The notes: a model not told the origin generated them from the letters alone. A DNA stretch of 64,000 nucleotides from Antedon mediterranea (GCF_964355755.1 NC_092679.1:2076201-2140200); one strand, 5' to 3'; shown: positions 5,801 through 58,983, numbered from the stretch's first letter. Program-made: numbers and translations.

Positions 5801-8800
5801 AAACATTACATTTTAAACGGTCTAAATCCCACGTGGTTCGTCACTGAACTGTAAGCGCGCAAATCGGTCAACTGTGACCATGTACTAAATAAAGTCAAGT
5901 CGTACAAGCACGTACTCTGTCACACACCACTACGTACGCACATTCAATCGATGTGCCCTAACCTAAATTTGTAAAATGTGTTACACTTGTTCAAACATAT
6001 TTATTGAGAAACCGAATTCTTACAAATGTCAAGGTATTTTTTTTATGAATGACTTTTAGAATAGCAGTTTATCATATTTTAGTTACGTACTCAACGCCTA
6101 ATGTTGGAAAACACATGTTCTTGGTAACAATCAAGGCAAAAAGTTATTTTATAATTTCATTCTATTTTTTGTAGGCTTGAGAAAAACATGACCAACATTC
6201 ATCAGTCTGGAATAGAGACAGGACACACAATTGATGACAAATACTTTGTCGTCTGTGATTTTGCGCCATTATTCAATGGCTAGGCTTTGGTTTTACCTGT
6301 TTTCACCAAGTCTGCGAATGCTTGTGAGACTGTTAGAAGAGTTGCTGTACGGCTTCCGCTAGTCGACGCATCATTTAACCATGCGTCCCTATTTGCTCCA
6401 ATCACAACAAACCGATCTGAAGAAATTAAATTATTTGGGATTGAACATAAAAGTGTATTCAGGAATTGGAAAGTGTATTCAGGAATTGGAAAGTGTATTC
6501 AGAAATTGGAAAGTGTATTCAGGAATTGGAAAGTGTATCCAGGAATTGGAAAGTGTATCCAGGAATTGGAAAGTTTGCTCAAAATATTGATATCTTACTG
6601 AAGAAATCAAATGCAACAATTATTATTTGGAATTGAACAGCAAAGTATTCATGAATTGGAAGTTTGCTCAACATATTGATATCTTGTCTAATGAATGAAG
6701 TAGCCTCGGACACACTGCATAAATAATTAATAAAATATGTTTTAGCAGGGAAGAAGAATGATTCACTCTTCCCTGGTTTTTGCTAGATTAATCGATTGCA
6801 ACATATATATTACTCTCACCTGGTTCGATACTTCCTTTTATGGTAGCAACCACGTTTTGTATTGTAGCCACTTCTAACCTATTTCTCACTTCAAGTTTGG
6901 CAAATCTATTAAAACATGTCAGTAACAAGAGAGTTGTCAAAACGTGTAAAGTATATTAAATCCAGGTTACATAAAACACTTCCAATAATTATTAAGTTAT
7001 GCAATATAAGGCGATGTGCCCAAATATGGTAGTGATATGACATCATGTCCATATAAGGGCACATCACATTTTAAATTAATACATAGGATGAAAGTAATGG
7101 AGTGTTCCATTGACTACATTTGTCATGTTTCTAGGAGCAATCATTTTTTAAATAACAAATCATTATTTTAATTAGATAAAAATTTGTTTGAAATTAAGAA
7201 TGTCAGTAACAATGTAAGAATACATTATTTCTAGAAAAAAAGGGATTTAGTGGAGATTTTAAAATAAGATAACAATTATAAAGCTCTGTCTAAACTACCA
7301 AACTAGACAAAAAAAGTGTGATGTGCCCAAATATGGTAGTGATATGACATCATCATGTTTATATATAGGCACCTAACATTTTTTGTCACATAAAGTTTAA
7401 TAGTGTAGACAGAGCTTAAGACCCTTTAATGTGTGTTATGAATAAATTATAAAATCGTAACGGAGACATTTTTTTTTGTTAAATTTATAAGTAAAAGCTG
7501 AAACTAAATAAATTATAAAGAAGATGGTGATAAAGACACTGAAAATGGTGATAAAGATACTGAAAATGATGATATAAGTTGCTAAAGATGATGATGAAGA
7601 AGTTGATAAAGATTCTGAAAATGATGATAAAGAAGTTGATAAAAAGAAGATGAAAAATCATGAACATTAGTTTGAAAATGATGATGATGACGACGATAAA
7701 CACGTGCTGTGACGTCATGCAATACTTACAAACTACTTTCGGTAAACCCCAGACCAATACGGTACTTAACGCTCATCTCTCCTTTAAAGAACTTGGGAAC
7801 TTTTGGTCCACTTACTTGGCTATAAAATTAATAAAACTAAAACTGTTATGATCATTTTTTAAACTTAATGTTTAGTTGTCACTTTGACGCAACACACTGA
7901 CCAAATCAAAAGCGACAGTTTGGATGGTCCGTCGCGTCGTGATTGATCAAATCAATTGGGATGTGGTTACGTCAAAGTCTGAATCAAGATTGAACAAAAT
8001 TAGAAAAGTACATAAGTATTATATGCGAAGATGAAATTAAAAATCTGCAGAAAAATTACCTTAAAATATACTTTGCATCTTGTGCACTTATTATTGTTGA
8101 AGGAATTCTGGGTAATTCAATGTCCGTATTATTAATACGATATGCTCCGGCTGGATATAATAAAAATAAGGTAACAATTTATTCTACGTTTTTTAAAATA
8201 ATTGCGATTATATAAACCAATTTCGTTTTTTAGGCCTATAGATACAAACGTGTTCACTTTACCTATGGAGGGTAGTCCCGGTGTGGAGGGGTCGCCAGCG
8301 TAGTCGGGGGACAGCAACGTTTCTCTTGAGATAATCGATGGGTTAGGCCAGTAAGCATCTGGTGTATATTCTGTGTGTTCGGCATAATCTTGATACATGA
8401 TTAGACCGATACCTCGGTTCATTTCACTATTCTTCACCTGTGTTTAAGAAAAATGCTATTACTAAAAGGGTTTCACATCCATCTCTGATGAAGGATTGTG
8501 TAAAAGGAGGAGTTGCACATAATAAGGCTAGATGATTAAGAAATCTGAAGTGATCACCATTCTGACCTCTGACCCCTAAAATTGTCAGGTCGTCATAAAT
8601 GTATCATCTTCACTGAAACCATTTACCGTTTAATATCTAACTCAACCATATAGGTATTATCATAGGCCAAGAGAATCAACATAAAATTGATCCACCATGG
8701 TTGCTCTATGGACTCAACATTACCAACCTTATATCTGATAGACATTTTTTCTTTTTACACATTCCAGCCTTTATCTAACTCAACCATATATGTATTATAC

Positions 8801-11800
8801 AAACAAGAGAATCAACTCTATACAACTCAAACGTGATCCAATTTGGTTGCTCTATGGATTCAACATTACCAACCTTATCTCTGATAGATAATTTTTCTTT
8901 TCACACATTCTAGTCTTTATCTAACTCAACCATATATGTATTATACAAACAACAGAATCAACTCAAACGTGGTCCAATTTGGTTGCTCTATGGATTCAAC
9001 ATTACCAACCTTATCTCTGATAGATAATTTTTCTTTTTACACATTCTAGTCTTTATCTAACTCAACCATATATGTATTATACAAACAAGAGAATCAACTC
9101 AAAGTGATCCAATTTGGTTGCTCTATGTACTCAACACTACCAACCTTATCTCTGATAGATATTTTGCCTAATCTTGCTATAAACATCGTGTTCTCCTTTA
9201 TTCGATTTCCATATTTTCTCTGGATGTAATTAAAATCTTCCTCTCGTGCATAATTCACGTACATAATATTTCCCTGTTAATAAAGTATGTAAAACGAAAC
9301 CTGTAATTGTTGGAAATTAAACGTTCAGTTCAAATCAGTGAAGTGAATAATAGGTAGGCCTATCCGGTAATGTATTCTATCAATGTTTACTGTTTTCGAT
9401 TTAAATTTACAAAATTCCAATAATAATTGCATTAATTAATTTATTATCCAGATGTCTGTTGCAATAATTATTTAAAAAAACTAAATACATGAACAAAAGT
9501 GAAATATAAAATCTTAACCAAATCTTACGTTACGTACGGTTTACGTTACGTGTGATATTTTACAGTACTTTAGTTTTTATATCATTATAAATTACATTGG
9601 TTTTTCTATGTATCAATCAAAATAATGGACTATACATATCGGAATAGTTGATAAGACAATCTATAAAACCTATGTTCATCCTGGTAAAAACACTGTAAAA
9701 TCAGGTAACAATTTCGTGGATTATGTACAGAGTAGTAAAAGCTAAGCAAATAAAAATTATGTCCTTATATGGCATAAATGTGATTACACTTTAATAAAAT
9801 GGCGGATATTCATGGTTGGATGACATTTCAAACGGAAAAGTTGTATAATTTTAAACACATTATATAAATTGTATGAAAATTATAAATACATTACTAGGAA
9901 ACTCGTGTTTGAAAACCCATTTGATTTTATTAAAGGCAGAGGTTGAATACGATCATCATAAATTATGGCGTAGGATATTAATGTATGTGAGTGATAATGG
10001 ACTGATTTTATTTTATGGATTGTTCTTTCTGCCTCAATCTGAAAGAGATTACCACCAGGAGAAAGTTAATTATTGTTGGTGGATTAATGTTTTCGATTTG
10101 TCTTCATTTATGATGAGAATGGAAAACTAAATACCAAAACTCCAATTATACATTTTGAAGTGAATCCAGATTTGGATAATAAAGTTCGTTGAATCGATTT
10201 GAATTTTGAATTTCGAGATATTATAAATGCAAACAATTTACGACAAAATTAAATATATTTTTAAATTTAACAAATCAAAATTGTCCACAAACTAAAAACA
10301 TTTTCTCAAAACGTATTCATACCGTATTCTTAAGCTCTGTCTACACTATCAAACCTTATGTGATGTTCCCATATATGGACACGATAACATCATCACTACC
10401 ATTATTATTTGAGAAAATCCTTCATATTTTGTCAAACTAGTTTGATAGTGTAGACAGTGCTTTAGATTTTACAATGGTAATATTTCGTTCCCAGAATGCG
10501 ATCGCATCGAAAGCTCTGTCCACACTATACTGTATCAAACTAGTGATGTGCCCAAATAATATAATTCATTTATTTTGACTATTAGACTTATAGTAATCCT
10601 GTATTATTATAATTATTATTGGTATTTTCTTCTGTATTCTTACTTGTTGTGTATTTCATTGGAATTAAATAGGGCCTCTGAATATAAACTAAAGCTAGTT
10701 TGTCAAAAAAAGTGTGATGTAATCAAATATGGTAGCGATATCCTTAAATATGGTAGTGATATGACATCATCATGTCCATATATGGGCATATCACATTTTT
10801 GTCACATAAAGTTTGATAGTGTAGACAGAGGTTAAACCAGAGTAAACCAGATCTAACCTGTTTGACACCAGATACTGAGTATGCGTTAAAAGGAGGTGTA
10901 CCGCTGTTAATTGCAAGACCTGTTAAGCCGGACGGCATTGATTCTCCGCTCGACTTCCATACTTCATCATTCCCATACCAAAGGGATACCTATAATTTAT
11001 ACAAATATATATATATTAATAATTATGAAAACGGCAAACATAAGTATACATAGTAAATTGTCCCGATTCCGGTTCCCCTGTTGTCTATTTTTCTTTTTCA
11101 GTTTATGGGCTGCCTCTCAAAAGCTTTCATTTGTTGGATCTTGACTCTCTTGGTTAATCAAATTATCGTTTGTACTCTATTGTTATGAGAAATACATGTT
11201 ACTTTTGATTGATAAATTAGTGACGACGACATATTTAAACAAAATCATGACATAGCTTAACATAACCAATTTGCTCTTTGGGTAAACTATAATGCGGAAA
11301 GAACACGTGACATTCTTGACTGACCCAATCTCATTAAATTTCGGAAGAAAGCAAGAAAATAAAAGAGAAAATGAAAGCAGATTAGAAGGATTAGGAGAGG
11401 ATGTTTGGTGACTTTGTAATATTGAGAATATACTTATAGTATAAACTGATCGCGACCCCTGGGGATATTCAGATAAGGGTATAGTTTGTATATTCCTGTA
11501 TGGTACACTACACTTCAACCTGAACTCCATTTGATTATTATCATGTACAAATTTAGAAATCCTCTGCTTTTCTGAATTATACCTTTTAATTTAAAACATA
11601 TTTTTCGCTTTTATAAACACCTGATTTTTGTTTGTTTTTTTTTTCTCTCGAAGATTTTTTTTTATTTCTTTTTTAAACTCGTTCAATACTTTAAGGAATC
11701 CTAATTTCTGGAAAAATATCAGAAGCCTGGGTGCTTAGACTTGGTTCCCAATAGGATGCAACGCAAGAATCTAAGTGCGTGCAACGCAAGCGAGTTGAAT

Positions 11801-16025: not shown

Positions 16026-16131
16026 GTGAGTGAGTGAGTGAGTGAGTGAGTGAGTGAGTGAGTGAGTGAGTGAGTGAGTGAGTGAGTGAGTGAGTGAGTG
16101 AGTGAGTGAGTGAGTGAGTGAGTGAGTGAGT
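16026..16131. repeat. (GAGT)n microsatellite, ~26 units
   Basis: Perfect array abutting the SINE 5' end. Confidence 0.95.
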
Positions 16132-16623
16132 GGCCGAGCGGTTAAAGCGTGGTTCCCAACTAGCGACGCAACACAAGGACGTAACGAAACGCAAGTGAAT
16201 TGACCAATCACAAACGATGGCTTATTCGCTTGTGATTGCTAACTGTCTATAACTTCGCTTGTCATTGGTTAAAACGCTTGCGTTGCGTTTACGTCCTTGC
16301 GTTACGTTCTAGTGGGAACCAAGCTTTAGACAGTGGAACCGTAATTACATCGGCAAGGGTTCGAGGCTCACTCACTCCATGGTTCTGGTGGTAGAACGAG
16401 TCTTCTCGGATAAGGACTATAAACCGTAGGTCCAGTGTACACAACTAGCTCGTGTGCACTTTAAAGAACCTAGTACATCTTTCGAGACGAGTAGGGGGTA
16501 CCCCGGTGTATTGGTACATCACAGCCACTGATCCCCAACTGGGCCCTCTGGGAGACCAGTCTTTGACTGAAGAGGTTACCCAGTATAAATATATATTTCA
16601 ATCAATATTTCAATCAATCAATG
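16124..16623 (+). mobile_element. tRNA-derived SINE with a Deu/Nin-like central domain
   Basis: A-box TGGCCGAGCGG and B-box-like GGTTCGAGGC. The central GGATAAGGACTATAAACCGTAGGTCC...TAAAGAACC...CCCCGGTGT resembles the Deu/Nin domain. It ends in a (TCAA)n tail. Confidence 0.75.
16146..16325. mobile_element. MITE family B (~179 bp fold-back, TWA target), inserted in a SINE A-box
   Basis: AGCGTGGTTCCCA...TGGGAACCAAGCT, near-identical to copies at 26718, 51951, 63518 and 63829. Confidence 0.9.
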
Positions 16624-16947
16624 TAGCTCAAAGACAATAGAACATATAGGCCTAATAGAATTCCTAAGACTTTTTGGTTGGGTGTACTACTGGCGGGTGC
16701 GACCACAACAAAAAGATTAAAATACTTATATATAGATAATCGATATACAATTCATGCTATCAATGGCAATTAGCTGATTATTACTAGAAATCATATTTAC
16801 AGGTCAATCAAAATCTCCAGTAGACACAAAACATGTTATCTACAACAAATATGTTGGTTCAAAGGTTGATTTACATTGATTCATATTGACTTGCTACTGC
16901 TGCTACTGTATAACAATATAATTTAGGTAGAGCTACATTACCACAAC

Positions 16948-19900
16948 ATGTCTGAAGCTTTTGCTTCAGATTCTAACAACTCTACGGGAAAATCTCGTTA
17001 TGGCAGGCGAAATCTTTATCTTATGTTTGCATGTGTAGGACTTCTAGGCCTAGGAATTGGTTTGCTCTTTGCATTCTTAACTTTTCCTGAAACTTTACGT
17101 AGCCCAGAGTGTATCGAGTATGGCGATGGCAGTAATGGCGCTGACTGGGTCTCAGACAAGTTGATGAATTCGATAGTTGCTGAAAATATCGAAGAATATC
17201 TAAAGTAGGTTGCTTTTTTCTTTTATCGCCACTAATCGGAAGTATATTGTAATTGCAGGGAGATGTAAAACAAATATTTCATATCTCCCTGGTAATTGTA
17301 CCCCGATTCCGCAGCTTTCACTAGGTATATATTAACTGATCATTGACAGTCATCTAGATAGGAGCAGCAAAATAAAACACTGATGGATTCTTTTCCTATC
17401 GATTTTATAGATATTTTTCTTCCCGACCTCATCTTGCTGGGACACCAGCAGAGAAAGAAAATGCGCAATATGTTCGGGATAAATGGATTGAACAAGGAAT
17501 GGACAACGCCAAGCTAGTTCCTTACAATGTCTACTTGTCATACCCCGATACAGACAATCCAAATATGGTAGGTTCAAATTTGAATATTTTAATCTATTTA
17601 GTCATCGATTAATTAGATCCCTCCCTGGTTGAAGTAATACATTATTTGTGAATTTGTTAAAATCTTAGGTGTCGATTCTGGAAAATGATGTTGAGATATT
17701 CCGTACGCGAGAGCACGAGGATGTATTAAGACCTGAAGATGACAATCCTGACATAGTACCACCTTTCAACGCCTATTCTGCCCAGGGTACAGTCGAGGTT
17801 AGTATCAACCGGTTATACTTCTTTCTCGTATTACCAACAACATCATACCATTAAATCAAATCAAATCTTTATTTGTTCCATATATAGAAAATGTACATGG
17901 AAAAATTGTTTTCCTCGACAGAAAAATATGGTAAAACATTCACAATTACATCATAATAGAACAAATTTACAATTTAAAAACATTAATTAAAACATCCATC
18001 AACTGTAAAACTTAAAAATATATATTGCATGTGCGCTATTATGATCTAACAATTTTTGAGTTAAAAATATGAGTTGAATTTGGTACAAAAGACAGTCGGT
18101 TTCTTGACGTATCAGCTCTAGAAGCCCGTAACCGGCCTGACTTGTTCTTATAAAATCTCATATGTAATGGATGTTTCTTATCTTCTAAAATTTTACTTAA
18201 TTTACTTAGGCCTTGTTTTTCATAAAGATATTTTAAATCATTAACCGTACAACCAATTATATGTGATGCTATCTTAGTATTTCTAATGAGACCTTTCATA
18301 TAACACAACACATAATTTCCAATGTGAATGCACACTAGCAAACTTTCTGAGTTCGCTTGCACTGTTTCAACAAGTTTGTAGTGTCTGATCTAACACTATT
18401 TAAAATATACAGGCTTTGTTGGTGACACTGCCTACCTTTTGCAAACTAGTTTTCTGCAGTTTGAAGAAAATTGTCAACTGGTCTACACTAAACTTTTAAA
18501 AACCTTTACTGTCAAACTCAAGATTTGGTTCGTGTTTGTCATCGTAGACGTCTACAAACTAATTGTTTTATGTAGTTTTCAGATGGTTGTCAACTGCTTT
18601 ACACAAGCAAACTTTTGAAAATGTTTCTTCCTAAACTCCAAGTTTGCAAACTAAAGTTAATTTATCTAGTGTAGACATAAGAAAACACAGAATTAAACAC
18701 AAATGCATTTTCTACCTGCATATTGCAAACCTAAAGCAACGATTCTATTAAAATCTTCACAATTTATTTATGTCTTTAATGTATTATTCCATTTTTCACA
18801 GGGTGATCTCGTTTACGTAAACTACGCGAGAGCTGAAGATTTTGAATACTTGGAGAAGAATCATAGTAATATAGACCTCAAAGGCAAACTGGTAATTGCT
18901 AGATATGGAAAGATATTCAGAGGAAGCAAGGTAAACTTAATTTGTTACAAAATACACCTACTGCATATATTGTCACTAAGTCTGTTTTTGTACTTGCTAT
19001 ATAGAATAATATAATACGTTTCTTTGACCTCTGAAACGTAAACTGGTAATTTACCAAACCTAATCTATTCAACCAAAAGTCTTAAACAATTCTGAAGAAA
19101 TAATTTCTAATTGAGGTGATATATATCAACTATTTATATACATCTTCGACTCAGGTGCAGCTTGCCGAAGCGGCTGGAGCTAAAGGGGTAATTCTCTACT
19201 CTGACCCAGACGATTACGCATCAGAGGAAGCGAAGGATGTTTACCCCAACGATTGGTGGCTACCAGGATCAGGTGCACAACGTGGAAACGTGTTCGTTAG
19301 TGACGCAAAGGGTGACCCATTGACACCCGGGTTTCCAGCTAACGGTATGTTTACTAAACTACAATCAAATAACATACACATTTGTGTAATAATTATCATA
19401 TTCTGTCAGCTCTACCATAAAAAAAGAAATTTGTAATTTGTATTCTTAGATTACGCGTACCGATTATCGGACGAGAAGACCGCATTGACTAAAATACCAG
19501 TACACCCGATAGGATATGACGATGCTGAGAAACTTCTAAGGTACGTACACTTAATATTTTGTATTATGCAGTCGTACGGATTTACTGACAGCTCTGTTTA
19601 ATGTTGCAGTGTAGACTTCTGTAAACTATTGTTCTTCAGTTTGTCAAAGTTTACTCAACTCAAAATTTACTCGAGTTTACGAACAAATGTTTGCCAGTTT
19701 CGAATTCTGCAAACTTGTTTTCTTTAGTTTGCTAAAGTTTGTCAACTCCACTCTTCTAAGATTTTCTTTTTTTTACAGGGAACTTGATGGGGAAGATGTT
19801 CCCGAAGAATGGAGAGGGAAATTAAATGTTACCTACAAGTTTGGGCAAACTTTCAAAAATCCAAATAGGTAAATTTCGAGTAGATTCATAAAGATACATT

Positions 19901-22900
19901 AAAAATTCAGTTTACCTTGTTTGCATGCTAAAGTAATATTTTTTGTTTAAATTCTATGACAGAAAAATTAAATTGAAAGTGTTATCAAAGAAGGAAGTTC
20001 GAACGGTGTACAATGTTGTCGGCATGATCAAAGGAAGCGTTGAACCAGGTAAACGTTAGGGGAATTAAGATTAACACTATTATACAAATTAGATTATGCT
20101 AACATTTACATGTCACTGATCTATGAAACATATTATGAATAAATAAGATGAAACGATTCTACTAATGCTTCTCAAACACATCCATCTATCTATTAAAATT
20201 AAATAAGTAAATATGTTGTAAAGCTCTGTCTACACTATCAAACTTTGTGTGACAACAAAATGTGATGTGCCCATATATAGAAATAATGATGTCATATCAC
20301 TTCCATATTTGGGCATATCACTACCATATTTGGACACATCACACTTTCTTTGTTAAACTAGTTTGATAGTGTAGACAGAGCCTAAGCATGTTGTTGTTTC
20401 TTGTTTTAAGATCGTTACGTCATCCTCGGAAACCATCGGGACGCATGGGTTTATGGAGCGATCGATCCATCGAGTGGCAGCGCAGCTATGATGGAGGTCA
20501 CCAGTGCTTTTGGGAACCTTCTTAAAACTGGTGGTTAGTATAATATTATAGTTTATTGATTCATAGCACACGTCGGCCAGTGGTTATGGTGCTCTAGATG
20601 TGGATTGGCAGGATAATAGACGACCACAAAGACATCTCAATTCATGACAAAGTCACCAAAACTGTGGAAAAGTCCAAAGATACGACATTGTTCTCTCCCG
20701 CTGTGCTAGTTATGTATTATCTTATTTACACCTGAAGTGATTTAATAGGTTAATAAGAGGATCTCATTGTTGTTATGTTTCAGATTGGCGACCAAGACGC
20801 TCCATACTTTTCTGCAGTTGGGCCGCGGAAGAATACGGCCTACTTGGCTCAACTGAATATGTAGAGGTATATAATATTCGATCGATCATCATCATTCCAT
20901 AAACGATAGGCCTACAGTATCGCCAGTATTAAATACATCAACTCAACACTGTGGTCAATTGCCATTAGACAATAATTGTTGTTTTAAATTTCTTTTTTGT
21001 TTGTTTTTAGGACTTTCAGCGAGTGTTATCCGAAAGAGGTGTGGTCTACATCAACGTTGATTCAGCAGTAACTGGTAACTACACACTCCAAATGAAATCA
21101 AGCCCATCACTCAAGAAAGCACTGTTTAATGCTGCAAAGAAGGTACTACTACTTACTATCCGTTTATATTTGACAAAACGCGTTACTTCAAACGCAAAAG
21201 AAAGAAAGAACATAAATAACTATGTTGATGATGCGTTAAACAATTTATTTTTCCAAATCTACATAGGTACCATCGCCAGACGATGGTTTTTCGTCAACAT
21301 TTGATCTCTGGCTAAAACGCAATGCAGATTACGATGAACCAACGCTTCCATAGTAAGTAGGCCTACAGGGTATATAAGAGGACAACTTCGGGGGGCATAG
21401 CAGGGATTTCCATAGAAAGGTCTTTATTCTAGTGTTAAAACCATGTAGGGGCATTTTAAAGGAGAAGTTTCACAGTATGAAGTTAGTACATGTGGTTGGC
21501 ACATTAATCTACCAAATTACGTCATCTATTCATGTCATTTCTTGTTTTATTCTTGATCACAGTATAGGTTATTTGGGTTCTGGAAGCGATTTTGCTCCTT
21601 TTATGTACCGGATTGGAATTCCTGGAACCGATATTTTGTGGACATTTGATCCCGTATGTATATGTATCTGTTTTTTTTTCCTGATTTGTTTGTATTTAAG
21701 ACAGGACCACAATGCAAAACAGGTTTCTTTTACCTGATTGTGTAATCCTGTATAAATAAATAAAAAGTATCTATAAGCCTAATCATTGTTCAAGTATATA
21801 TTCAATTGTTTCCAGCTTTAATATCATATAATCTGTTGTTTTTATATTTAAAAGAGGCTGTCATTATCGTCGTATCCAGTGTATCATTCAGTCTACGAAA
21901 CGTTTTATCTCGTCAAATCGTTTCTCGACTGGGACTTCAAGCGTCACCAGGCAGTAGCCCGTGTGTGGACAGAAGTTGCGCGCGATTTCGCAGACACCAC
22001 TATCTTGCCAATTGACTGTGTGGATTATGTTAAAGAAATTCGTAGATCAATCAATTCTATTCAAAGTTTGTACGGAGATAACATTAATGAGCATGGAATT
22101 ACATTTGGTAAGAAAAAAAGAACATACGCTAGAATATTTTCATAAATTCAAGCTCGAATAAAATCTTAATTAAAAAATATGCTCTGCTATTCTTTTTTTT
22201 GTATAGATGCCATGTTTTCAGCAGTCGATAATCTGACAAATGTAGCCACAGATTTCCACGCAAACGTTAAGGACATGGACTTGTCTGAGTGAGTATTTAA
22301 GTACAACTCAAGTTTTTGTTGAATTATCGAGGAGACAAATATATATGATGAAACATTTTGTAATGCCATTTTTTAAAGAAAGAAAGGAGGTATTTCAGAT
22401 TGTCTGGCTATCAGTAAGTCCATTCAACCAACAAGGAACGCAAAGGTTATTATCAACGTTTGCAACTAGACTTAGATACAAGAAGAAGTACCGATCTAAT
22501 ATACCCTTTCTCAACTGACATTTCGAATATTTCACAACAGATTGAATTACATTTTGAGTGAACTTTCATCAATTTATACTTTCACAGTATTCTTGCAGTT
22601 CGAAAGGTGAATGATCAACTGATGTTATTCGAGAGGGCGTTCATAGACCCACTTGGTTTACCTGATCGAAAGTTTCTCAAGTAAGTTTTTCCAAACGTAA
22701 ACGACGTTTTACGCTGACAAATTACGGTACTAAACAATGTATAGTTTGATTATATTTCATTTTTTTCTAGGCACGTTGTCTTTGCTCCGAGTAGCAAGAA
22801 CTACTACGCAGGCGACGCGTTCCCGGGCCTCCTTGACGGTCTTTACCGCATCGACGAAGATCCAGATCAAGATGGCAGATGGGACGCAGTACGTGAACAT

Positions 22901-22966
22901 ATGGCAGTCGTAGCCTTTATGATCCAATCAGCTGCCAGTACTCTTAAAGACGTCACTGAATACTAG
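16948..22966 (+). CDS. Glutamate carboxypeptidase II / NAALADase-family peptidase (M28B), 17 exons, intact active site
   Basis: Exons approx. 16948-17204, 17411-17567, 17669-17797, 18802-18930, 19155-19344, 19450-19540, 19779-19868, 19963-20048, 20411-20533, 20784-20866, 21011-21142, 21267-21352, 21563-21653, 21855-22107, 22208-22287, 22588-22680, 22771-22966. Motifs: [70 protein letters not shown]. Confidence 0.93.
17256..17291. mobile_element. 36-bp CAGGG...CCCTG hairpin insertion, perfect 7-bp target duplication
   Basis: GTAATTG|CAGGGAGAT...ATCTCCCTG|GTAATTG. Confidence 0.8.
17853..18310 (-). mobile_element. 5'-truncated non-LTR retrotransposon (Rex1/Babar-like ORF2 C-terminus)
   Basis: [11 protein letters not shown]...SGRLR...[10 protein letters not shown]...FN* followed by AATAAA and a (GATTT)n tail. 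Confidence 0.7.
20222..20382. mobile_element. MITE family A copy
   Basis: Full TIRs and core. Confidence 0.85.
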
Positions 22967-23490
22967 GATCGATTGCTCAGTTGTAATTAATAACGTAGAT
23001 TTTGCCAAAACATATCAAACATTGAAATATACTGGTATAAGTGCGCCCATAAATGTGTACTATCTAACATTTTTATCGCAACAGCGATGCGATAACTTAG
23101 GATTAAGATATATGTTGGTATATTATAATTATGGATTCCAGGATACTGAAATAAAAGTCGGCAACTTCAATCACAATATCTGGTCTTAAACATCGACCTT
23201 ACACCTATTAATGTCGTACTAAATCAATTTTATATTAGGCCTATGTATAGTGTATATAACCTACCATCATGGTAATACTAAAAAAAAACTTGATTCTGAT
23301 TGGCTACAAGATAGTAAAATAAACGTCATGATATTTTCGCGCCTAATCGACGGGGTACCGCTTATTGGTATAGCAGAGTAGCAGTAGAGTATGACCTGGG
23401 TCTACACAGGGTCAAATACTGTGGTTTAGATAATCTGAGTTAACAAACGAAATAGGTATAAAAGGCCTACGCGTAAACGAAGATTTCAAC

Positions 23491-30515: not shown

Positions 30516-30527
30516 AAAATTCTTGAA

Positions 30528-30653
30528 AGCTCTGTCTACACTATCAATGTGTGATGTGCCCAAATATGGTAGTGATATGATATTATCATCATGTCCATAT
30601 ATAGGCACTTTACATTTTTCTGTCACATAAAGTTTGATAGTGTAGACAGAGCT
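30528..30653. mobile_element. MITE family A copy 12 bp after a stop codon (3' UTR)
   Basis: Full TIRs. A further solo left end lies at ~30712. Confidence 0.85.
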
Positions 30654-31168: not shown

Positions 31169-32473
31169 TTATGTATCTGTTGTAGATAAGTGTTCTCTGT
31201 TTCGTATGACAAGCTCCTTGTATCCAGAATTCGAGTCAAATTCTCTTGTAAATTTCAGGCTGTTGAGTTCACCAATCACGAGCTCTATAGTTGTATACGT
31301 CTCCATGACTTCCATCACGTGACCTCCAAATACCTATCATCAATTAAAACCAAATTAAACAAAGAGTTGATGATCTTTTGTTTATAAAATTACTATTCAA
31401 CTAGGACTATATAGGAAAAAGTTTTATTTCAATAGTGTCTTTGGCGTACCATAGAATTTTCATCTGATATAGAAGCATGAAGATGGAATCCATCTTGCGA
31501 AAGAGTTCCTGACAATGACACAATCTCATGAGGTTTGGAAAAGGTCTTCACCTGAAAAGGAAAAATAATGATAAAACACAAATCAAATAGTACCATATTA
31601 AAAGTATAAATATAAAAAAGAAATCAATTATTAGTTAATTGTTTTGTTGTTTTGTTTTGGGGATGAGGATGTGGAACTTGTTTTATTTGGCTAGTAGTCT
31701 AACCTCTATCTACTGTCAAACAAGTTTGACAAAAAAGTCTGATATGCCCATATATGGTAGTGATATGACGTCATCGTATCCATATATGGGCACATCACAT
31801 TTTTGTTGTCAGATAAAGTTTGATAGTGTAGACAGAACTTTATGATAAATAATGCCCTTTCATACTCACAGTCGTAGAATTAGCAGTGCGTAGCTTTGTG
31901 AATTTGGTACTTCCTACACAAGAAACTATAAAGGCGGCCTTCAGGTTATTTTCAGTTAAGAACAACTTGAGCCGTTTTATAATGTCCTCGCCTGGTACCA
32001 GTCTCAGGGCATAGCACGTAAGCTTAGGAATATTAAAGATGAACAAAATTAATTATTAGAACTTCACCACGAACTCAACTCTTGCAATAATGGTGTCACA
32101 CGTCACTATAATTTAAATCTAGGCCCACCTAGTCGATATAAAAATGTTAAAAATTGCATAGGCCTAGGCCTATATGCAATTAATGATTAAACATGTGATA
32201 CTATCTAGCAAATAACATGTACCGTATTATTTTTATACCATTAGAAGCACCCCCCACCCCACACCACACCCAGTCACTACTTTACTTACACTAAAGCAGG
32301 GAGATGTAAAATAATTATTTTACATCTCCCTGCACTAAGCTAGGCCTATCTTATTCTTAGTCAGGTATCTAATAATCTAGCCTAGGGGCGGCTAGACTGG
32401 CGCTAGTACTGGCCTGTAAAACGTGTTCTACAAAACAAAATTATTTTCCTTTACTTACAGCAGAAGAATTCAT
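31169..32473 (-). CDS. Stand-alone PPC (DUF296) domain protein, 144 aa, 4 coding exons
   Basis: Exons 32459-32473, 31870-32022, 31450-31551 and 31169-31333, all phase 0. Motifs YALRLVPGEDI, AAFIVSCVGS, EIVSLSGTL, HLHASISD, VFGGH, TTIELVI and REFDSNSGYKEL are typical of DUF296/AF0104-like proteins. Confidence 0.88.
31702..31839. mobile_element. MITE family A copy (degenerate)
   Basis: Core and right TIR. Confidence 0.75.
32297..32332. mobile_element. 36-bp perfect palindrome CAGGG...CCCTG with target duplication
   Basis: CACTAAAG|CAGGGAGATGTAAAATAATTATTTTACATCTCCCTG|CACTAAG. Confidence 0.8.
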
Positions 32474-38275: not shown

Positions 38276-38977
38276 AAGTACCTATAAATATAATACTAGT
38301 AGTAGAAGTACCTATTAATATAATACTAGTAGTAGAAGTACCTATAAATATAATACTAGTAGTAGAAGTACCTATTAATATAATACTAGTAGTAGAAGTA
38401 CCTATTAATATAATACTAGTAGTAGAAGTACCTATTAATATAATACTAGTAGTAGAAGCACCTATTAATATAATACTAGTAGTAGAAGTACCTATTAATA
38501 TAATACTAGTAGTAGAAGTACCTATTAATATAATACTAGTAGTAGAAGTACCTATTAATATAATACTAGTAGTAGAAGTACCTATAAATATAATACTAGT
38601 AGTAGAAGTACCTATTAATATAATACTAGTAGTAGAAGTACCTATTAATATAATACTAGTAGTAGAAGTACCTATTAATATAATACTAGTAGTAGAAGCA
38701 CCTATTAATATAATACTAGTAGTAGAAGCACCTATTAATATAATACTAGTAGTAGAAGTACCTATTAATATAATACTAGTAGTAGAAGTACCTATTAATA
38801 TAATACTAGTAGTAGAAGTACCTATTAATATAATACTAGTAGTAGAAGTACCTATTAATATAATACTAGTAGTAGAAGTACCTATTAATATAATACTAGT
38901 AGTAGAAGTACCTATTAATATAATACTAGTAGTAGAAGTACCTATTAATATAATACTAGTAGTAGAAGTACCTATAA
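38276..38977. repeat. 30-bp minisatellite x ~23
   Basis: AAGTACCTATTAATATAATACTAGTAGTAG, near-perfect, no spacers. Confidence 0.97.
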
Positions 38978-39152
38978 CCTCAAAAAGCTGCCTGTGGATT
39001 CCTTTATAACACCAAGACCATTGGCTTATTTTGAAAAGAGAAGATAAAATATGGAAGACTAAAGTACTACAATAATACTCCCACTGCAGATCTGAAAGGC
39101 AGAAAAATGACCTGATTTGACCCTGGCAGCCTGATAATGACCCCTGAACTTA

Positions 39153-42100
39153 TTATTCGTATAATCCATGTCTGTCTTTGACTATCATCATGTTATCTAT
39201 AACTTTTCCATCCTAAAATACAACAAAAAATAAAAAACATATTCATTAACTTATATATTTGTCATTATATATCTAGTTTTTAGTACCTAATTATTTCCAA
39301 GCAGAAGTACTACGATCTTCCTCCTCCCCCTCCCCAATTTTTCTCAAACCCCCCGCCCCATTGCTTTATTTACCTGATTATCCGATACTTGCTCAAAGTA
39401 AAGGTGCGTTTCGTTGATGACATGCATTCTGCTGTAACCATAGTCCCTTGATCGGAAAGCATCCCAGTCCATCTTGCGTATTTTAAGCGGTGTTATTAGT
39501 TCCCGGTTTCCCTACAAAAAACACAAAACATTACAGCCCTTATGCTAATTGTGGATTTAAATATGCAATTCATTTCCTTTGTAAGATGATACTTACAGGT
39601 GAACCGGTTATTATATGAACAGGTGCGCCAGGGTTAGTATATGGATTTTCGTAGCTTCCATTGTACACCTAAACAAATGCAAAGACTGACTGGTAAGAGA
39701 AGACTAGCAAAACTTGTTAAGACACTATTTCAAATTCAAATATATACAAATACAAAGATGGAATAAAACTAATATGACTGTAGTTTAAAATAAAGTTAGT
39801 TATTTCAATGGGAGGTGAGCAAAATATTCCATGTCTAAAGCTACTCTCACTAAGAAAGTAGCAATACCGTTGCAAAGTGACTGGTGAGAAAAGACTAGCA
39901 GAGCTTTCAAACACTACAATTGACTTGTATTAATACACTCACTGTATTATTATAGACTGGATACATTCGTTCATATGCATGTTCATGGCCATATATCTCA
40001 AGATCAACTCCTAGAATAAGGAAAAAAATGTGAAAACTGCAACATTATTGTGTTTTATTATGTAAAAAGATTACATCATATCTTTACTTACAATAAGCAT
40101 ATACAGTAATATTACTTAATTTTTTTCTTATGAAAATTAAATTAAGAAATTAAATTGTCTACTTACCATACTTGTAAAATAGATCTTCAAAAGCTCCTCT
40201 TATCTAAAAATAATCAAATTCAGATTTATAGAAACAGAGCACGAAGAAAATTCACATAAAACTTAACTTTTAGAAATTAGGTCTTTAAAAATGTTCGTCT
40301 AAATATACTAAAACATAACCAAATATACTAAAAAAATATATACTAAACATAACAAAATATATTACCAAGGTTTCTCTTTTGTGACAATCCAGACCATAAC
40401 CTGAACAATACATTGGCCTATGACCTATTGTGATGATCCATGGCTGGTTCTTGCGATTCTTATTAGCTTCCTGTTTGGGGGAATAAAAAACAAACTATTA
40501 AAAGTCTAAATAAATATAGTATTACCAAATAAAGGTCTTTTCTTGTTATTATTATCATATACTGTACATTATTTTCAGTTTTGTTATTTCTTTTACTATG
40601 CATTGTTTAAGTATCCTGTACTTTTTTAATCACTGATTAAATTGTTTTCATGACAACATTTTAGTTTTGTTTCTGAATTTTTTTTAAATTTATCATTATT
40701 CTTGAATAACATTCAGATTATGGCGGACAAGTTGAGCATAAACTAATCACCTTTAGGTCTTGTTCAAGCCATTGAAACTGTTCATCAATGAGAAATTCAC
40801 CATAATCTTGGTAGAAGATTACCTCAGTGGAGAACGATATAATATGAGCAGGACCTATGTTCCAACTACAACAAATAATTGATAGCACATTAACCACATG
40901 TTTTAACAAAACAACAAGATTTTGAAATAGGGATGTGGCAAGCCTAATAATTGTTAAACAAAGCACTAAACTTAAACTCATTTTCTTTTGCATTGTATTT
41001 TCCAAGATTTAAACCGATGTATGAAATAATTGTTTTAAAACTGAATTGAAGATGTAAAGTACCTTACCTAAACCACAAGTTCTCAGTTTTTTCGTACATT
41101 GGCATAGTAAAACGATTCTTGTAATTGGAAAAATTACTGCAAATAAATCAAAATATACAAATTAATTAAGTGGGTTGAGCATTCATTGTACAGGTGTTAG
41201 TTCATAGGTCATTCATAGGTTCATATGTCAGAGGTGGACAACTTACTATTTTTGTTCATGGTTCCCAACACACGTCATGTACGGAACATAAGCGGCAATA
41301 GCTTCTATCTGACGCATAAAATCATTTCCTACCTTCCCGTTCCGGGAATCTAAGTCATATGCAATATCACCTAATTTAAGGAAAAGAAATAAATACAAAA
41401 AATCACATTGAATTTCAAGGATATATTCAACATAAAATATTCAAATCAATATAAAGCTCTGTCTACACTATCACTAGTTTGACAAAAAAAATGTGATGTC
41501 ATATCACTTCCATATTTAAGGATATCACTATCATATTTTGTCAAACTAGTTTGATAGTGTAGACAGAGCTTAAGAGTAACTAATAGTTATTATTTTCAAC
41601 ATCATTATTTACCTACCCACATGGAGCACAGCATCATAGAGTCCACTCTGTGTCTCACGTTGAAGCCTCATCATTGACCGGGCATTAGCGTTTCCTAAAT
41701 CACCATAAACTGCAAATTTTGGACTCCAACTTTTGATAGGTTGGCTGTGAAACCAAAATATTTGACTCCATCCTGATGGTCCTCCACAATGGTAAACTAA
41801 AAATAAATAAATTTGTTTGTAGTGTGTAGCAAAAATCAGAAATTATACTAGATATTTCAAAATAGAAAACAATTGTCACATACAGTATGCTTTATCTGGT
41901 TCAAGCGCAGTCAATTTGACCCGATGTATATATTGCACTCTTTTCATTATTCCTCCGTCTACAAATGTTGTAGTCATTCCTGTTGCGTTTTTGTTTAGCT
42001 TTAAATCTTGGCCATACTCGACTACTGGTATCGTATCTATCATGGTACTCCATGTCACCATCATCTCGTTAACTTTATCTATAAAAAAAGGTTTTCATTA

Positions 42101-47173: not shown

Positions 47174-50100
47174 CTAAGTTTGTGTTTTTTTCATTGACAA
47201 CTTCTTGAGTGCGTCCACTATCATCTTCTTGGATTCCTGGTTATTTCCACTCCGAAGGCCCTTCAATTCATTTACGACCGTGTCCTGTAACATAGCAATA
47301 AAGCAACAGTAAATCAACCAATGACAGTCTCTTAATTCTTGCTATGATAAATCAGATAATCTTTCAAAAAGTCAATCCGATCTTACAATAAACCAATGAG
47401 GCTGACTGAATCAATCACTTGCCCAGTCAATCTTGAAGTCAAATCTCTGTATAGAGGCCCTATCGCCAGATATAAATTTAAAGCTTAGGTACAGGCATGA
47501 ATTTTAAATTTAATATTTGGTTAATTGTACATAAATCAAATATTTGTAACAGAAATCGAGACGAAAAAACATGAATTTCACTTAATATGGTCAAATACAA
47601 ACTTTGGCAAAATTCTTCCATAAAAACCAGGAAGACTTTTTTTCAGTAGTTAGGTAGTTAACCTAATGTATAACATGTCTGGTGACTCCCTAGACGGTGA
47701 AAAAAGATGTGGATAATTTTGCTATAGCATGAAAATAAATTTTGAAGTTTTTACCACACCGTTTATTTTTCATAGCTTTTTAAAATGCCTCTCTATTTAC
47801 AAAATGTGTGTACACAAACGAATAGATATTTTACTGTGTAATTTGAACTATCCCCCCACTGATAAGAAAGTGCTTATTTTCAACAAACTCGTGTAACACA
47901 AATAAAATCCCAAAAATTATGAAGCATAGGGGAAACTATAGATCGATAATTATTGGAATGTATGATCAATAGAAATTTTTTGCCCGCACCTGGCCTTTAA
48001 AAGCATTGTACAGGCAGGGAAGATAATGCAATTTCACTTTTCCCTGGTATAGGCCTAGCCTCCTCAATCCACGCATACAAAATGAAACAAATATTATATG
48101 TTTCTTTAAATTAATTTGTATTATGTTTAATATCTTGATGTTTTGTAAATTCAAAAATATATTTATAAATATGTTATTTACAAGTAATATTAATTATTAC
48201 AAAGGAGCAGTTTAATTTGAAATATCAAGTTTCGTTGCCATTTAGAAATGTCCGATGCAAAGAACATTGCCCGACATTCGATCCGACAATCGACAGAACC
48301 AATTTGGCGATTCACAGTTTGTTTTTTTTTTGCAAAATTGCAAATTTTCTATTATCAAGAAAACGGCTCAATTACAGTATAATAACATGTGTACATTGTT
48401 ACACGCCTTAGGTGTCTATTTCATGCGTCAAGTTCAATATTTATTTTTAGTATATTAAGTTCTATCGGTCACCGAAAGTTTAGCTATATTAATTAGAAAA
48501 TAATATTGTTAAAAATAGCTGATAGTGTACCCATCTACGAAATGGTAATAATACCGGAAATATCTTGGGAGCTTGGCTCACACTTTGGAGACGCAACGCA
48601 ATGACGTAAGCGCAAGGTAAGCTATTTGACCAATCGCAATCAATATATTATATTCAACCTGTCGCTTGAAATTGTTCCTCGCTTGAGTTGCGCTTACGAA
48701 CCAAGCCTAATCCTTCGGAACGCGGTTTGAAACCACCAGCACACAGTTAATTGAAGAATTTTACATTAAAGATGTATTGTCTCCACAAAAACATGAAAAA
48801 TGAAGATTATTAAAATCAAACCTCGAATATGCCATTTTGTAATTTTAACAAAGTTAATTACTTCCGTAGAAAAATATCCAGAAAAAATAATGTTTTCACT
48901 TATAAAATGACAAAATAAACAGTTAAATTCAATCAAAAACCCATTGGCTGGCAGCCAATTTGACTATTTTTTGCTCCAAATTACAGTTTTTTCAGGTAAA
49001 TAATTTTTTTTCTCGATTTTTGGTGAAAGTGAATAACTATTATGTGACATTAAAATGGCATATTCAACAAACAAATTGTAAAAATTTATTTTTTCAGGGG
49101 GACAATACATCTTTAAAGTAAGATTGTACCGATTATCTATTTAACGCATGCGCAGTACTGCAAACTGTTCAATCTGATTGGTCGATTGCTGCAGCCATAT
49201 TGAACGGTTTCTCTCCATGGTTACTATAGCTTTTGAGCTTTTGTATTGTTTGGCCGTCAAGCTCCTTTGATATCATCACTACGATTTGTATTAATACTTA
49301 ATCTTACCTTTATGTTTTCATTACTTCCCGAAAGATCTTGTTCGTTTTCTTCTTCGTTGTCAGATGAAAATGATGACGAATCTTGGTTGTCGTCTACTTG
49401 TTCGTCTTTAAGTACAACCTCAGGTTGTCTTTTTACATCATCGTAAAATTCATTGTTCTCATTACCTTCTCGTATTAAATTATCACCAGTCTTTTCAAAA
49501 TTATTATTTTCTTTTATTTTTTGGTTTGTTTGAAAGTTATTGCTGATTCTATTAGATCTTCCTTTACTTCCAAAGTTATGTGTATTCATTGCCATATGCT
49601 TTTCTTCTGCTGGTATTTCACTCGCAGAATCATTCCCATTTTCCTCTGCTGGTGTTTCGCTGGCAGAGTCTTCTCCATTTTCCTCTCCTGGTATTTCGCT
49701 GGCAGAATCTTCTTCATTCTCCTCTGCTGGTGTTTCGCTGGCAGATTCTTCTCTATTTTTTTCTGCTGGTATTTCACTCGCAGAATCTTCGCCATTTTCC
49801 TCTGCTGATGTTTCGCTGGCAGAGTCTTCTACATTTTCCTCTGCTGGTGTTTCGCTGGCAGAGTCTTCTCCACTTTCCTCTGCTGGGATTTCACTCGCAG
49901 AATCACCTTCATTTTGTTCTGCTGGTGTTTCGCTGGCAGAATCTTCTCCATTTTCCTCTGCTGGTATTTCACTCGCAGAATCTTCTCCATTTTCCTCTGC
50001 TGGTGTTTCACTCGCAGAATCGTCCCTATCAATTCCATCTTCTGTATTCTCACTGTCGTCAACTTCTTCGGTGTCTTCTGCAGGCGTTTCACTGGCGGAA

Positions 50101-53100
50101 TCTTCTGCAGGCGTTTCACTGGCGGAATCTTCTCCATCAGTTTCCTCTCCTTGTAATTTATTTTGTTCTGCCGGTGTTTCACTTGCGGAATCTTCTATGT
50201 TAGCGTCATCGGTATCTTCTGCCGGTGTTTCACTTGCTGAATCTTCTATGTTAGCGTCATCGGTAGGCCTATCTTCTGCCGGTGTTTCACTTGCGGAGTC
50301 TTCTAAGTTAGCATCATCGGTATCTTCTGCAGGAATCTCACTGGCTGATTCTTCATCATATTCCTCGTCACTTGCTGAATCTCCATTTATAAGCTCTTGT
50401 TTATTATTCCACGTAAATGATGAGGGTTTGTTTTTCAGTCCACGAAATTCACCCGGTTTTAACTCGTTGTAAAAGTCCTTCACTGAAATATATAGCAATA
50501 TAAATTTAGGTTACAAGACCAGTTATATTTTTCCATAAGTGATGTAATACATAAGACAGATGCAATATGGCCAAAGCAATCGGGAATAAGATGACTAACT
50601 TGTTAACTTACTTCGATCAGCTGGAGTTTTTTCTTGTCCTCTATTATTTTGTTTCGTGACGTCATTTTGTTCCAACATTTCACCAGGTATCAGATCTTTA
50701 CCTGTAGAAAATTTGAGACATTGAGACAAATAATAAATAAGTTCCCTTTTTATAATTGTTGTTTGAATCAACATTTTACTGTTAAATAAGATTGTTGCTG
50801 ATATGACTCGCTGCATAGTTCATAGTTCATCAGTCATGCGTTATTACAATTGATATTTTACCATTATTTACTTTATTCTTATGTAAGGCATACGTGTAAT
50901 TTAAATGTATCTATAATAAAGGTATCTATAATAATATACAGAATACAAATTATATTTTCATCCAATCACCTTTGGCCAACTGATTCTGGTTGTTTTGAAG
51001 TTCTGCGACCCATTTCAAAGTTTTCTGAAGCTTCTGATGTTCAAACTCCAAAGCTTTTAATAGATGATACAGGACATTATCTACAGTGTTCTTCCATTCG
51101 CCCGAATCTGGTAGCCATCCACTAACACTGCTCTCTCCTTCTGCAAGAGCACCGTCTCCACTACCTTCATCCTTATTCCTTTTGCTCTGAACGACGGAAG
51201 GCGAACTATCGCCCAATTCTTTTACGTATTTCATTGCTGCAAAGAAAGTGCCGTAACATCATTAACAAATAATAAGAAAATATCTTATAGGTGTTCCAGT
51301 TTGCTGACATTGTGGTCCTGCTGACTTTGCCCAAAATACGTTTACAAATTGTGAAGTGAATTGACTAGAGAACAATTTTTGATTAATTTTTGAAGACTAT
51401 AAATTAATAATACGCCGCTAAATTATATTCTGAATCTGAAACAAACATTTGTAAACCGTTTTATAAGAGCTGTTATAAAATGTTATGTAATATTGATTTT
51501 ATTTTCATTGTTATGTTACATTCCTGATTGAAATAGCTTTTAGAATTCAACATGATACTGGTTTAGATGAAACTCTAATCCTTATGGCATATCGATTGCA
51601 GTGATGTTAAAGCCAACTGTCAAATGTGCACATACTTATGCAACAGAAATATGATGTATTACAAGAATGGTTTTGATAATGTAGGAGGCTTAACACCAGT
51701 GTTGAGAAACACGGCGGTAGTAAAAATAAAGCTTGGTTCCAACTAGGACGTAACGCAAACGTAAGCAATTTGATAAATGACAAGCGATAGATTGTTTTGA
51801 ACTATCAGGGTCAACTCGCTTGCGTTGCTCTTACGTCCCTGCGTTGCGTGGTTGTAGGAAACAAGCGTACGTCAACGACTGCGTGACGAATAAGCGTAGT
51901 TCACCGACCACCATGCTTCAACAACGCCAGAGCCATATATATGGCTCTAAAGCGTGGTTCCCACTAGCGACGCAACACAAGGACGTAACGCAACGCAAGT
52001 GAATTGACCAATCACAAGCGATGGCTTATTCGCTTGTGATTGCTAACTGTCTATAACTTCGCTTGTCATTGGTTGAAACGCTTGCGTTGCGTTTACGTCC
52101 TTGCGTTACGTTCTAGTGGGAACCAAGCTTTAACAACGCAACGCAAGGACGCCGCGTAACGTAGGATTGGACCTATCAAAAGACGGTTCGGATAATAACT
52201 ATTATTTGGAATTTCTGATGATTATTGATGACAACACGGATCCATGATAACAGAATGCAAAGGATGCAGATGATGATGATAATGGTACCGTATTTCGATA
52301 ATTTAATTCATTTCAAAATCTTACCTCCGTTTACCATTTCAAGACACTCTTCACTTACACCCGAGAGGTCCATTTGGTGTGATTTTTCCTGCTGTGCTAT
52401 CAATCTTATGACATCAGCAGCGCAATTGTTCAATTTCTAAAAGAAGAAAATGTAATAATAATGTCAATTATTTCTTACTTTCTTCTTTAGGCCTATTGTA
52501 TTTAGAACATTTTAGCAGGGAAAACAATTTTATTTTAAACTAAAATAAATCCTACTCCAAAAATAAATTGCAATATCGCGAAAAAAGGAACAAATACATT
52601 TATTTTTGTTTTCTGTGCTTCCATGATATTAATAGTCTTTTTATGCTTTGCTTGTTTGTTTTCTTGTCTGTCTGTCTGTTTTGTTTTGTTTCTGTACGTT
52701 AAATTAAACATCAATATGATGTTTTTCTTAAAGATTCAAGATTCAAACTTTAATCTAATCCATTTCTGGAAATTCCATTGCTTGCATTAAAAATTACAGA
52801 ACAGCAATTACAATACAATTGAAATTACAATAAAACTTATTGGATATATGTATATCACCGGGCGGTTTCGAATTAATGTTCATTGCCTAATGTGTTTTTA
52901 TATATATAATATGTATAAATCCAAAGGCAAATTACTGAAAAAAATGACAATGCTGTGGGTATTAGTGGCCGGATCTCAATGAAGATACAAAAAAAAGAAG
53001 CGAAAAGCTAAATCAAAACGATAAAGTAAAACAGCCAGAAAAGTTAGCAGAGCTATATTCAATAAACATAATAGCTATAATAAATTTTAGCTATATAAAC

Positions 53101-57668: not shown

Positions 57669-57881
57669 AGCTCTGTCTACACTATCAGGCCAGGGAGTTG
57701 TTACTAATAACAACTCCCTGATCAGGCTTTATGTGACAAAAATGTGATGTACAAGTCAAATATCAAATTATGGTAGTAATACGTCAGTATGCTTAAATAT
57801 GGTAGTGATATGATATCATCATGTCCATATTTGGGTACATCACATTTTTTTGTCACATAAAGTTTGATAGTAGACAGAGCT
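57669..57881. mobile_element. MITE family A copy carrying a nested 30-bp hairpin element
   Basis: The left TIR is interrupted at ATCAGGC by 57691-57720. Confidence 0.8.
57691..57720. mobile_element. 30-bp CAGGG...CCCTG hairpin, perfect 7-bp target duplication, nested in MITE A
   Basis: ATCAGGC|CAGGGAGTTGTTA-CTAA-TAACAACTCCCTG|ATCAGGC. Confidence 0.85.
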
Positions 57882-58950: not shown

Positions 58951-58983
58951 CAGGGAGAGCGAAATTACTTAATTAATTCTCTG
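58951..58983. mobile_element. Degenerate 33-bp member of the CAGGG hairpin family
   Basis: TTAGGCG|CAGGGAG...TTCTCTG|CTAGGCG. Confidence 0.5.

What the first reader, a model, noticed from the sequence alone, without database searches (positions are those of the whole stretch)
6746..58983. Family of ultra-short (30-36 bp) hairpin insertions with CAGGG...CCCTG ends and 7-bp target duplications
Seen: six loci (6746-6775, 17256-17291, 32297-32332, 48015-48046, 57691-57720, 58951-58983). Each has CAGGGA termini (one degenerate) and a different flanking ~7-bp direct repeat; two duplications are perfect. One locus is a perfect 36-bp palindrome. One interrupts a MITE A TIR whose empty state is visible in other copies, showing it is an insertion. 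The arms differ between copies (GAGATGTAAAA, GAGTTGTTA, GAAGA), yet the better-preserved copies remain self-complementary. Established: 7-bp duplications are uncommon (some P-element and atypical hAT lineages), and MITEs are normally much longer. Inference: either minimal TIR-only mobile units or stereotyped abortive gap-repair scars of a larger element. Standard repeat finders would miss them.
Basis: partly seen in the sequence, partly recalled or inferred. Interest (0 to 1): 0.72.

Follow-up and report, generated by a model that had tools for sequence, protein, structure and literature searches.

The report
P-type transposon excision scars
This animal DNA carries tiny 30-36-letter hairpins, each between two copies of a 7-letter word, which are most likely scars left when jumping genes of the fruit-fly P-element type cut themselves out, although the jumping gene itself was not found.

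Summary
Five CAGGGA...TCCCTG hairpins of 30-36 bp lie in the window (0 in 100 shuffles), with a sixth, decayed one. Flank identity peaks at 7 bp (83%, against 35% or less at other lengths). One copy interrupts a MITE end whose empty state is seen in other copies. The six fall into three arm types, not one family. Best reading (0.7): excision footprints of P-superfamily transposons. P transposase cuts 17 nt inside each end, so the donor site keeps two stubs that end joining fuses between the two target copies. In a Drosophila assay 25 of 66 such junctions were 30-36 bp, and Galileo (P superfamily) makes 7-bp duplications. Contigs of one sample pile up on the 32297 hairpin and show a variant at its centre, as a repair junction would. 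Not found: a parent element or a transposase, so P membership is inferred, and a 7-bp hAT lineage or a minimal mobile unit is not excluded. No whole genome was held. This scan noted the same kind of scar before in another genome (e1-9385215). A known outcome seen in natural DNA; modest interest.

The parts
6746..6775 (+). 30-bp hairpin, arm type B (unequal arms), between GTTTTAG (6739-6745) and GTTTTTG (6776-6782)
   Evidence: (z -4.2)
17256..17291 (+). 36-bp hairpin, arm type A, between two perfect GTAATTG copies (17249-17255, 17292-17298); about 50 bases after a reading frame that looks like the first exon of a peptidase M28 (GCPII-like) gene (inferred)
   Evidence: (z -4.1); spanned without gaps by one listed contig in each of 4 runs
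32297..32332 (.). perfect 36-bp palindrome, arm type A, between CACTAAAG (32289-32296, one extra A) and CACTAAG (32333-32339)
   Evidence: z -10.5; contig pile-up and a 2-base insertion variant at its centre
48015..48046 (+). 32-bp hairpin, arm type B, between GTACAGG (48008-48014) and GTATAGG (48047-48053); fits two 17-nt stubs joined over a 2-base overlap
   Evidence: (z -1.9)
57691..57720 (.). 30-bp hairpin, arm type C, between two perfect ATCAGGC copies (57684-57690, 57721-57727), inside the end of a MITE A copy
   Evidence: (z -8.5)
57669..57881 (.). host MITE A copy (ends approximate) that gives the empty-site comparison
58951..58983 (-). 33-bp decayed copy; one arm resembles the type B right arm in reverse orientation; between TTAGGCG and CTAGGCG; weakest member
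   Evidence: (z -0.3)

Best explanation
The hairpins are likely excision footprints of P-superfamily cut-and-paste transposons that make 7-bp target duplications. Steps: (1) an element inserts and duplicates 7 bp (shown: duplications, and the empty site in MITE A). (2) On leaving, the transposase would cut one strand at each tip and the other about 17-19 nt inside, so each chromosome end keeps a single-stranded stub of the element's end (inferred from Drosophila P). (3) End joining would fuse the stubs at a short A/T overlap, bluntly or with a few added bases, giving duplication + 15-18 bases + 15-18 bases + duplication (length and layout shown; the joining inferred). (4) The stubs come from inverted ends, so the product is a palindrome; type B has unequal arms, which would come from a parent whose inverted repeat is shorter than the stub. 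(5) The scars would be immobile, would pile up over time, and would record at least three parent families.
For: Lengths 30, 30, 32, 33, 36, 36 in three different arm types, where the pattern allowed 26-42. No long CAGGG...CCCTG element with a 6-9-bp duplication among 29 left and 25 right motifs in the window. P transposase cuts 17 bp inside the inverted repeat (PMC7776569, passages). Drosophila P donor-site junctions have the same layout: 25 of 66 isolates listed in Table 1 of PMC2895639 are 30-36 bp between the duplications (25 of the 45 that keep letters of both stubs); 14 are 30 bp and 5 are 32 bp (section 7 read; lengths counted). Galileo, of the P superfamily, makes 7-bp duplications (PMC2775673 and PMC4168063, passages). 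hAT excision forms hairpins on the flanking DNA and leaves no such stub (PMC3878927, passages). 6746 and 48015 share both arms and differ mainly at the centre. In one search, summed contig depth at 32314 is about 30-60 times that of single-copy contigs in all 4 runs, and 2 contigs per run carry two added bases at that central position (7-13% of the depth). Control: of 25 similar hairpins in viral contigs, 1 has a 7-bp flank repeat with one mismatch and none a perfect one.
Against: No parent element and no transposase: 0 of 134 reading frames of 70 aa or more hit a transposase family in Pfam, and no genome was held. With 17-nt stubs the two 36-bp type A copies each need 2 added bases; the perfect palindrome and its symmetric 38-bp variant fit stubs of 18-19 nt or more better, which is not the Drosophila value. 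Most contig depth at 32314 lacks the listed variant, so many type A copies may be nearly identical, as a mobile unit would also give. The four runs are one sample, and summed contig depth is no copy number. Repbase holds hAT families with 7-bp duplications (PMC4455052, passage), and CAGGG also opens some hAT ends (recalled). The match of the target words to Galileo's GTA half-site is weak (15 of 36, expected 9.9, p 0.045, n = 6). The Drosophila figures come from Rad51 mutants.
Confidence: 0.7

Rival explanations
1. Minimal mobile units: the 30-36-bp hairpins are themselves moved by a transposase supplied from elsewhere, as very short MITEs.
For: Two type A copies have the same 36-bp length at unrelated sites; type B occurs two or three times; many near-identical contigs pile up on 32297.
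Against: Three unrelated arm types share one length range, which a fixed cut explains and independent MITE families do not (inference). Same-type copies differ at the centre. Drosophila P needs transposase sites inside the inverted repeats (PMC7776569), which these units would lack. Identical junctions also recur in true P footprints (14 of 66 identical).
Confidence: 0.13
2. Internal-deletion remnants of a hAT lineage with 7-bp duplications, formed by aborted gap repair or collapse of a long inverted-repeat element.
For: hAT families with 7-bp duplications exist in Repbase; the name hATw for such a group and the likeness of CAGGG to Ac-type ends are recalled, not from a call.
Against: hAT excision leaves flank hairpins, not element stubs. 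Aborted repair should give a wide spread of lengths, yet no longer remnant with these ends and a duplication is in the window.
Confidence: 0.12
3. Chance hairpins or local fold-back duplications with no transposon behind them.
For: 58951 folds no better than shuffles and lies among local repeats of its 7-mer; a loose scan (CA ends, 5-bp arms, 7-bp repeat) gives 0.57 hits per block shuffle, at most 3, against 4 observed.
Against: Shared CAGGGA ends at five unrelated sites with 0 in 100 shuffles; the 7-bp peak; the empty site in MITE A.
Confidence: 0.03

Closest known systems
Drosophila melanogaster P-element donor-site end-joining junctions (PMC2895639, passages and section 7 with Table 1 read; PMC7776569, passages)
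   Same: Target duplication + stub + short junction + inverted stub + target duplication; commonest products 30 and 32 bp, also 35-37 bp; ends CA...TG; A/T-rich centre.
   Different: 7-bp not 8-bp duplication; other arm sequences; natural loci, not a laboratory assay; type A fits a stub of 18-19 nt or more; type B has unequal arms; no parent found.
Galileo, P superfamily (PMC2775673, PMC4168063, passages)
   Same: 7-bp duplication; weak likeness of the target words to its GTANTAC consensus.
   Different: Galileo has very long inverted repeats and is known from flies; the word 'footprint' did not occur in either paper; no sequence comparison of the ends was made.
Zebrafish P-like (THAP9) transposon (PMC7776569, passage)
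   Same: Its 13-bp inverted repeat is shorter than 17 nt, so its scars would have unequal arms like type B (inference).
   Different: 8-bp duplication; its cut position was not given in the passages read.
hAT families with 7-bp duplications (PMC4455052, passage; 'hATw' recalled) and MITEs
   Same: 7-bp duplication and short inverted ends.
   Different: [quoted passage not shown]

Membership tests
P-superfamily excision footprint | Both target copies kept, 7 or 8 bp | tested here: met
   7-bp peak at 83%; two perfect, three with one mismatch, one with an indel
P-superfamily excision footprint | Two inverted stubs of about 15-18 bases, total near 30-36 bp | tested here: met
   lengths 30-36 against 25 of 66 Drosophila junctions in that range
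P-superfamily excision footprint | Stubs no longer than 17 nt | tested here: inconclusive
   types B and C fit 17 nt; type A needs added bases or stubs of 18-19 nt or more
P-superfamily excision footprint | Variation concentrated at the central junction | tested here: inconclusive
   6746 against 48015 and one variant at 32314; few copies, and 17256 also differs from 32297 within an arm
P superfamily | A parent element with these ends that encodes a THAP/P-type transposase | not testable with these tools
   no genome held; none in the window; outside scans gave no parent
P superfamily | Palindromic target motif like GTANTAC | tested here: inconclusive
   15 of 36 half-site letters, expected 9.9, p 0.045, n = 6
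hAT (7-bp lineages) | Excision leaves inverted copies of flanking DNA, not of the element's ends | tested here: not met
   the palindromes are made of shared element-like ends; no flank matches its insert; mechanism. This does not exclude hAT internal deletions.
hAT (7-bp lineages) | Parent with a hAT transposase | not testable with these tools
   no genome held; no hAT domain in 134 frames
MITE | Many copies of uniform size and sequence | tested here: inconclusive
   three arm types in six loci; contig pile-up on type A
MITE | The short unit itself moves to new sites | not testable with these tools
   needs population or assay data

The most novel reading that the evidence does not exclude
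A non-insect animal lineage of 7-bp-duplicating P-like transposons uses the long staggered cut known from Drosophila P, with a family-specific stagger (17 nt in types B and C, 19 nt or more in type A), and its scars are so dense (5-6 in 64 kb) that stagger length and germline end-joining habits can be read straight from the genome; at the boldest, the 36-bp type A palindrome is itself re-mobilised as a minimal transposon.
Probability: 0.2. Interest if true: 0.6.

Novelty: new member of a known kind. Interest (0 to 1): 0.33.

Why it matters
The 17-nt staggered cut is the hallmark of Drosophila P chemistry. Whether P-like elements of other animals cut the same way was not stated in the passages read. 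If these are footprints, they give a natural readout of cut position and of germline end joining, and they count past excisions that repeat finders miss. They would also be a source of 37-43-bp insertion polymorphisms. The mechanism itself is known, and this scan has met the same kind of scar in another genome, so the gain is one more case, not a new system.

Tried and rejected
No whole genome is held, so the genome-wide count, length distribution and parent search could not be run. A generic scan for short inverted repeats with duplications (4172 candidate hairpins) showed no second family with shared ends; CA-ended hairpins with 5-, 6-, 8- or 9-bp duplications: 0. A scan for long CA-ended elements gave 14 pairs with unrelated, mostly A/T-rich ends and none with CAGGG; taken as chance. 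No lone type A or B end lies in the window; a few loose matches to the type C arm (2-3 mismatches) have no partner. The 19-base type A end gave 1 metagenome match (L001, 47% GC, no partner end; chance); the 17-base end gave 4 viral matches with no partner end. An 8-bp duplication, as for typical hAT or Drosophila P, was rejected (35% identity). Loci 34248 and 51806 have CAGGG...CCCTG but no duplication and were left out; 51806 lies in MITE B sequence. Paralogous genes in the window give no empty site for the other five loci. In one search the tables were swamped by MITEs (15 of 1132 joints, 12 of 46 indels and 24 of 5357 loose ends shown), so empty or filled alleles and parent interiors could not be read; a close view of the 32297 hairpin in these runs was not obtained, which leaves that question open. 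Papers: ten searches listed no report of natural genome-wide P-type footprints; the library lacks most subscription papers, so this is no proof of absence. Staveley 1995, Beall and Rio 1997, Min 2004, Sekelsky 2017, Majumdar and Rio 2015, Feschotte and Pritham 2007, Yuan and Wessler 2011 and Ghanim 2019 were not held. PMC12905397 names hATw but gives no ends or duplication length (passages). PMC3408717 (passages) gave only the general footprint rule. No supplements were opened.

Full report
Setting. The window is A/T-rich (34% G+C) eukaryotic DNA with split genes: CFAP61, several peptidase M28 / PA / transferrin-receptor-dimer exons (GCPII-like), two purple acid phosphatases and a PCC-domain exon. 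It is read as an animal genome (inference). It is rich in MITEs and tandem repeats. No whole genome is held.

The observation. All six loci are present, 30, 36, 36, 32, 30 and 33 bp long. CAGGGA N14-30 TCCCTG matches five times, against none in 100 shuffles. Of 7 looser CAGGG...CCCTG matches, 4 have a 7-bp flank repeat with at most one mismatch, against none in 300 shuffles. Flank identity over the six loci is 83% at 7 bp and at most 35% at any other length from 2 to 12. Two duplications are perfect, three have one mismatch and 32297 has one extra base on the left. As an outside control, 25 similar hairpins from viral contigs include one 7-bp repeat with one mismatch and no perfect one. A looser scan (CA ends, 5-bp arms) gives 4 hits against a mean of 0.57 and a maximum of 3 in 30 block shuffles, so the shared longer ends carry the signal. 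Four hairpins fold far better than shuffles, 48015 weakly, 58951 not at all; 58951 is doubtful.

Insertion origin. At 57691 the hairpin sits in the end of a MITE A copy, and the MITE sequence resumes after one copy of the 7-mer. Fifteen other ends read ATCAAAC where this one has ATCAGGC twice, so the target had two changes, most simply before the insertion.

Anatomy. The arms fall into three types. Type A (17256, 32297) is 36 bp; 32297 is a perfect 18 + 18 palindrome. Type B (6746, 48015, probably 58951 reversed) has unequal arms after the first 9 bases, and 6746 and 48015 differ mainly at the centre; 48015 fits two 17-base stubs joined over a 2-base overlap. Type C (57691) is 30 bp with one mismatch and a central TA. 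No long element with these ends and a 6-9-bp duplication lies in the window, and none of 134 reading frames of 70 aa or more hits a transposase family.

Other copies. Four public runs, all of one sample, hold the region. Their contigs were laid on 16900-33000. At 32314, the centre of the perfect palindrome, summed depth is 630, 17257, 1194 and 1334, about 30-60 times that of the long single-copy contigs, so contigs from elsewhere lie on it. Two contigs per run carry two added bases there (7-13% of the depth), which would make a 38-bp perfect palindrome. Summed depth is no copy number, and the tables showed only a small part of the joints and loose ends. One listed contig per run spans 17256 without a gap. 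Empty alleles and parent interiors could not be read.

Mechanism. P transposase cuts at the 3' end of the element and, on the other strand, 17 bp inside the inverted repeat (PMC7776569, passages). The donor ends keep 17-nt single-stranded tails (PMC2895639, passages). Table 1 of that paper lists 66 repair isolates from Rad51 mutants (the figure legend says 68). Twenty-one had lost most or all of the tails through long microhomology or deletion and were not measured. Of the other 45, 25 are 30-36 bp between the duplications; 14 are the same 30-bp palindrome and 5 the same 32-bp palindrome. That is the layout and size seen here. Galileo, of the P superfamily, makes 7-bp duplications. hAT elements instead form hairpins on the flanking DNA. 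A fixed cut explains why three unrelated arm types share one length range; independent MITE families or aborted gap repair do not (inference). I put this reading at 0.7. Shown: duplications, empty site, lengths, palindromes, three arm types, one central variant. Inferred: the parent, its superfamily, the cut and the joining.

Against it. No parent or transposase was found, in the window or in three outside scans. Type A needs two added bases under a 17-nt cut; its 36- and 38-bp perfect palindromes fit tails of 18-19 nt or more. Many type A copies may be nearly identical, which a mobile unit would also give, though true P footprints recur identically too. Repbase holds hAT families with 7-bp duplications. 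The target words match Galileo's GTA half-site only weakly (15 of 36, p 0.045).

Rivals. Minimal mobile unit 0.13; internal-deletion remnants of a 7-bp hAT lineage 0.12; chance 0.03.

Known and new. It works like a P-element excision footprint. Membership of the P superfamily is not shown, since the defining transposase could not be tested. Ten paper searches listed no survey of such natural footprints, but several key papers were not held. Earlier notes of this scan hold nothing for this genome or this sequence and one unrelated hit. One note, e1-9385215, reads tiny inserts with 7-bp duplications in another genome as P/Galileo-type footprints and cites the same paper. I had written my reading and read that paper before seeing it; it is an AI note, not independent support.

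Verdict. A real feature, most likely a natural record of P-type excisions at 5-6 per 64 kb. New member of a known kind; interest 0.33.

Noticed in passing
window, 27 end matches from 2105 to 62672: MITE A: abundant short inverted-repeat family with ends AGCTCTGTCTACAC..., mostly flanked by TAA/TTA; a 3-bp TWA duplication would point to PIF/Harbinger (recalled, not tested).
   Followed up: partly
window 16144-16328, 26715-26899, 51948-52132, 63516-63700, 63826-64000: MITE B: about 180-bp family, 72-99% alike, with internal inverted repeats and ends similar in start to MITE A.
   Followed up: no
window 362-745 and 48757-49125: Two further inverted-repeat elements, with 76-base and 41-base arms; the second appears bounded by TTAA-like words.
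   Followed up: no
window about 2900-30500: Cluster of several peptidase M28 / PA / transferrin-receptor-dimer (GCPII-like) genes on both strands.
   Followed up: partly
window 34075-35950 (+) and 40720-42100 (-): Two purple acid phosphatase paralogues facing each other, with a 30-bp tandem array between them (38126-39115).
   Followed up: no
window 49257-50510 (-): 417-aa acidic reading frame built from 39-bp coding repeats (EDSASETPAE-like), no Pfam hit.
   Followed up: no
flanks of the six loci: The four bases after the right-hand duplication are CTAG, TACC, CTAG, CCTA, TTTA and TTAG; a target preference beyond the 7-mer is possible.
   Followed up: no
window 59966-59993 and 35310-35346: Two other short imperfect hairpins between direct repeats (11 bp with one mismatch; 6 bp), with ends unlike CAGGG.
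   Followed up: no
L010, L012, L015, L020, L023 (viral contigs): A related 33-bp imperfect hairpin with the same flanks recurs in five viral contigs; no duplication; unrelated to this finding.
   Followed up: no
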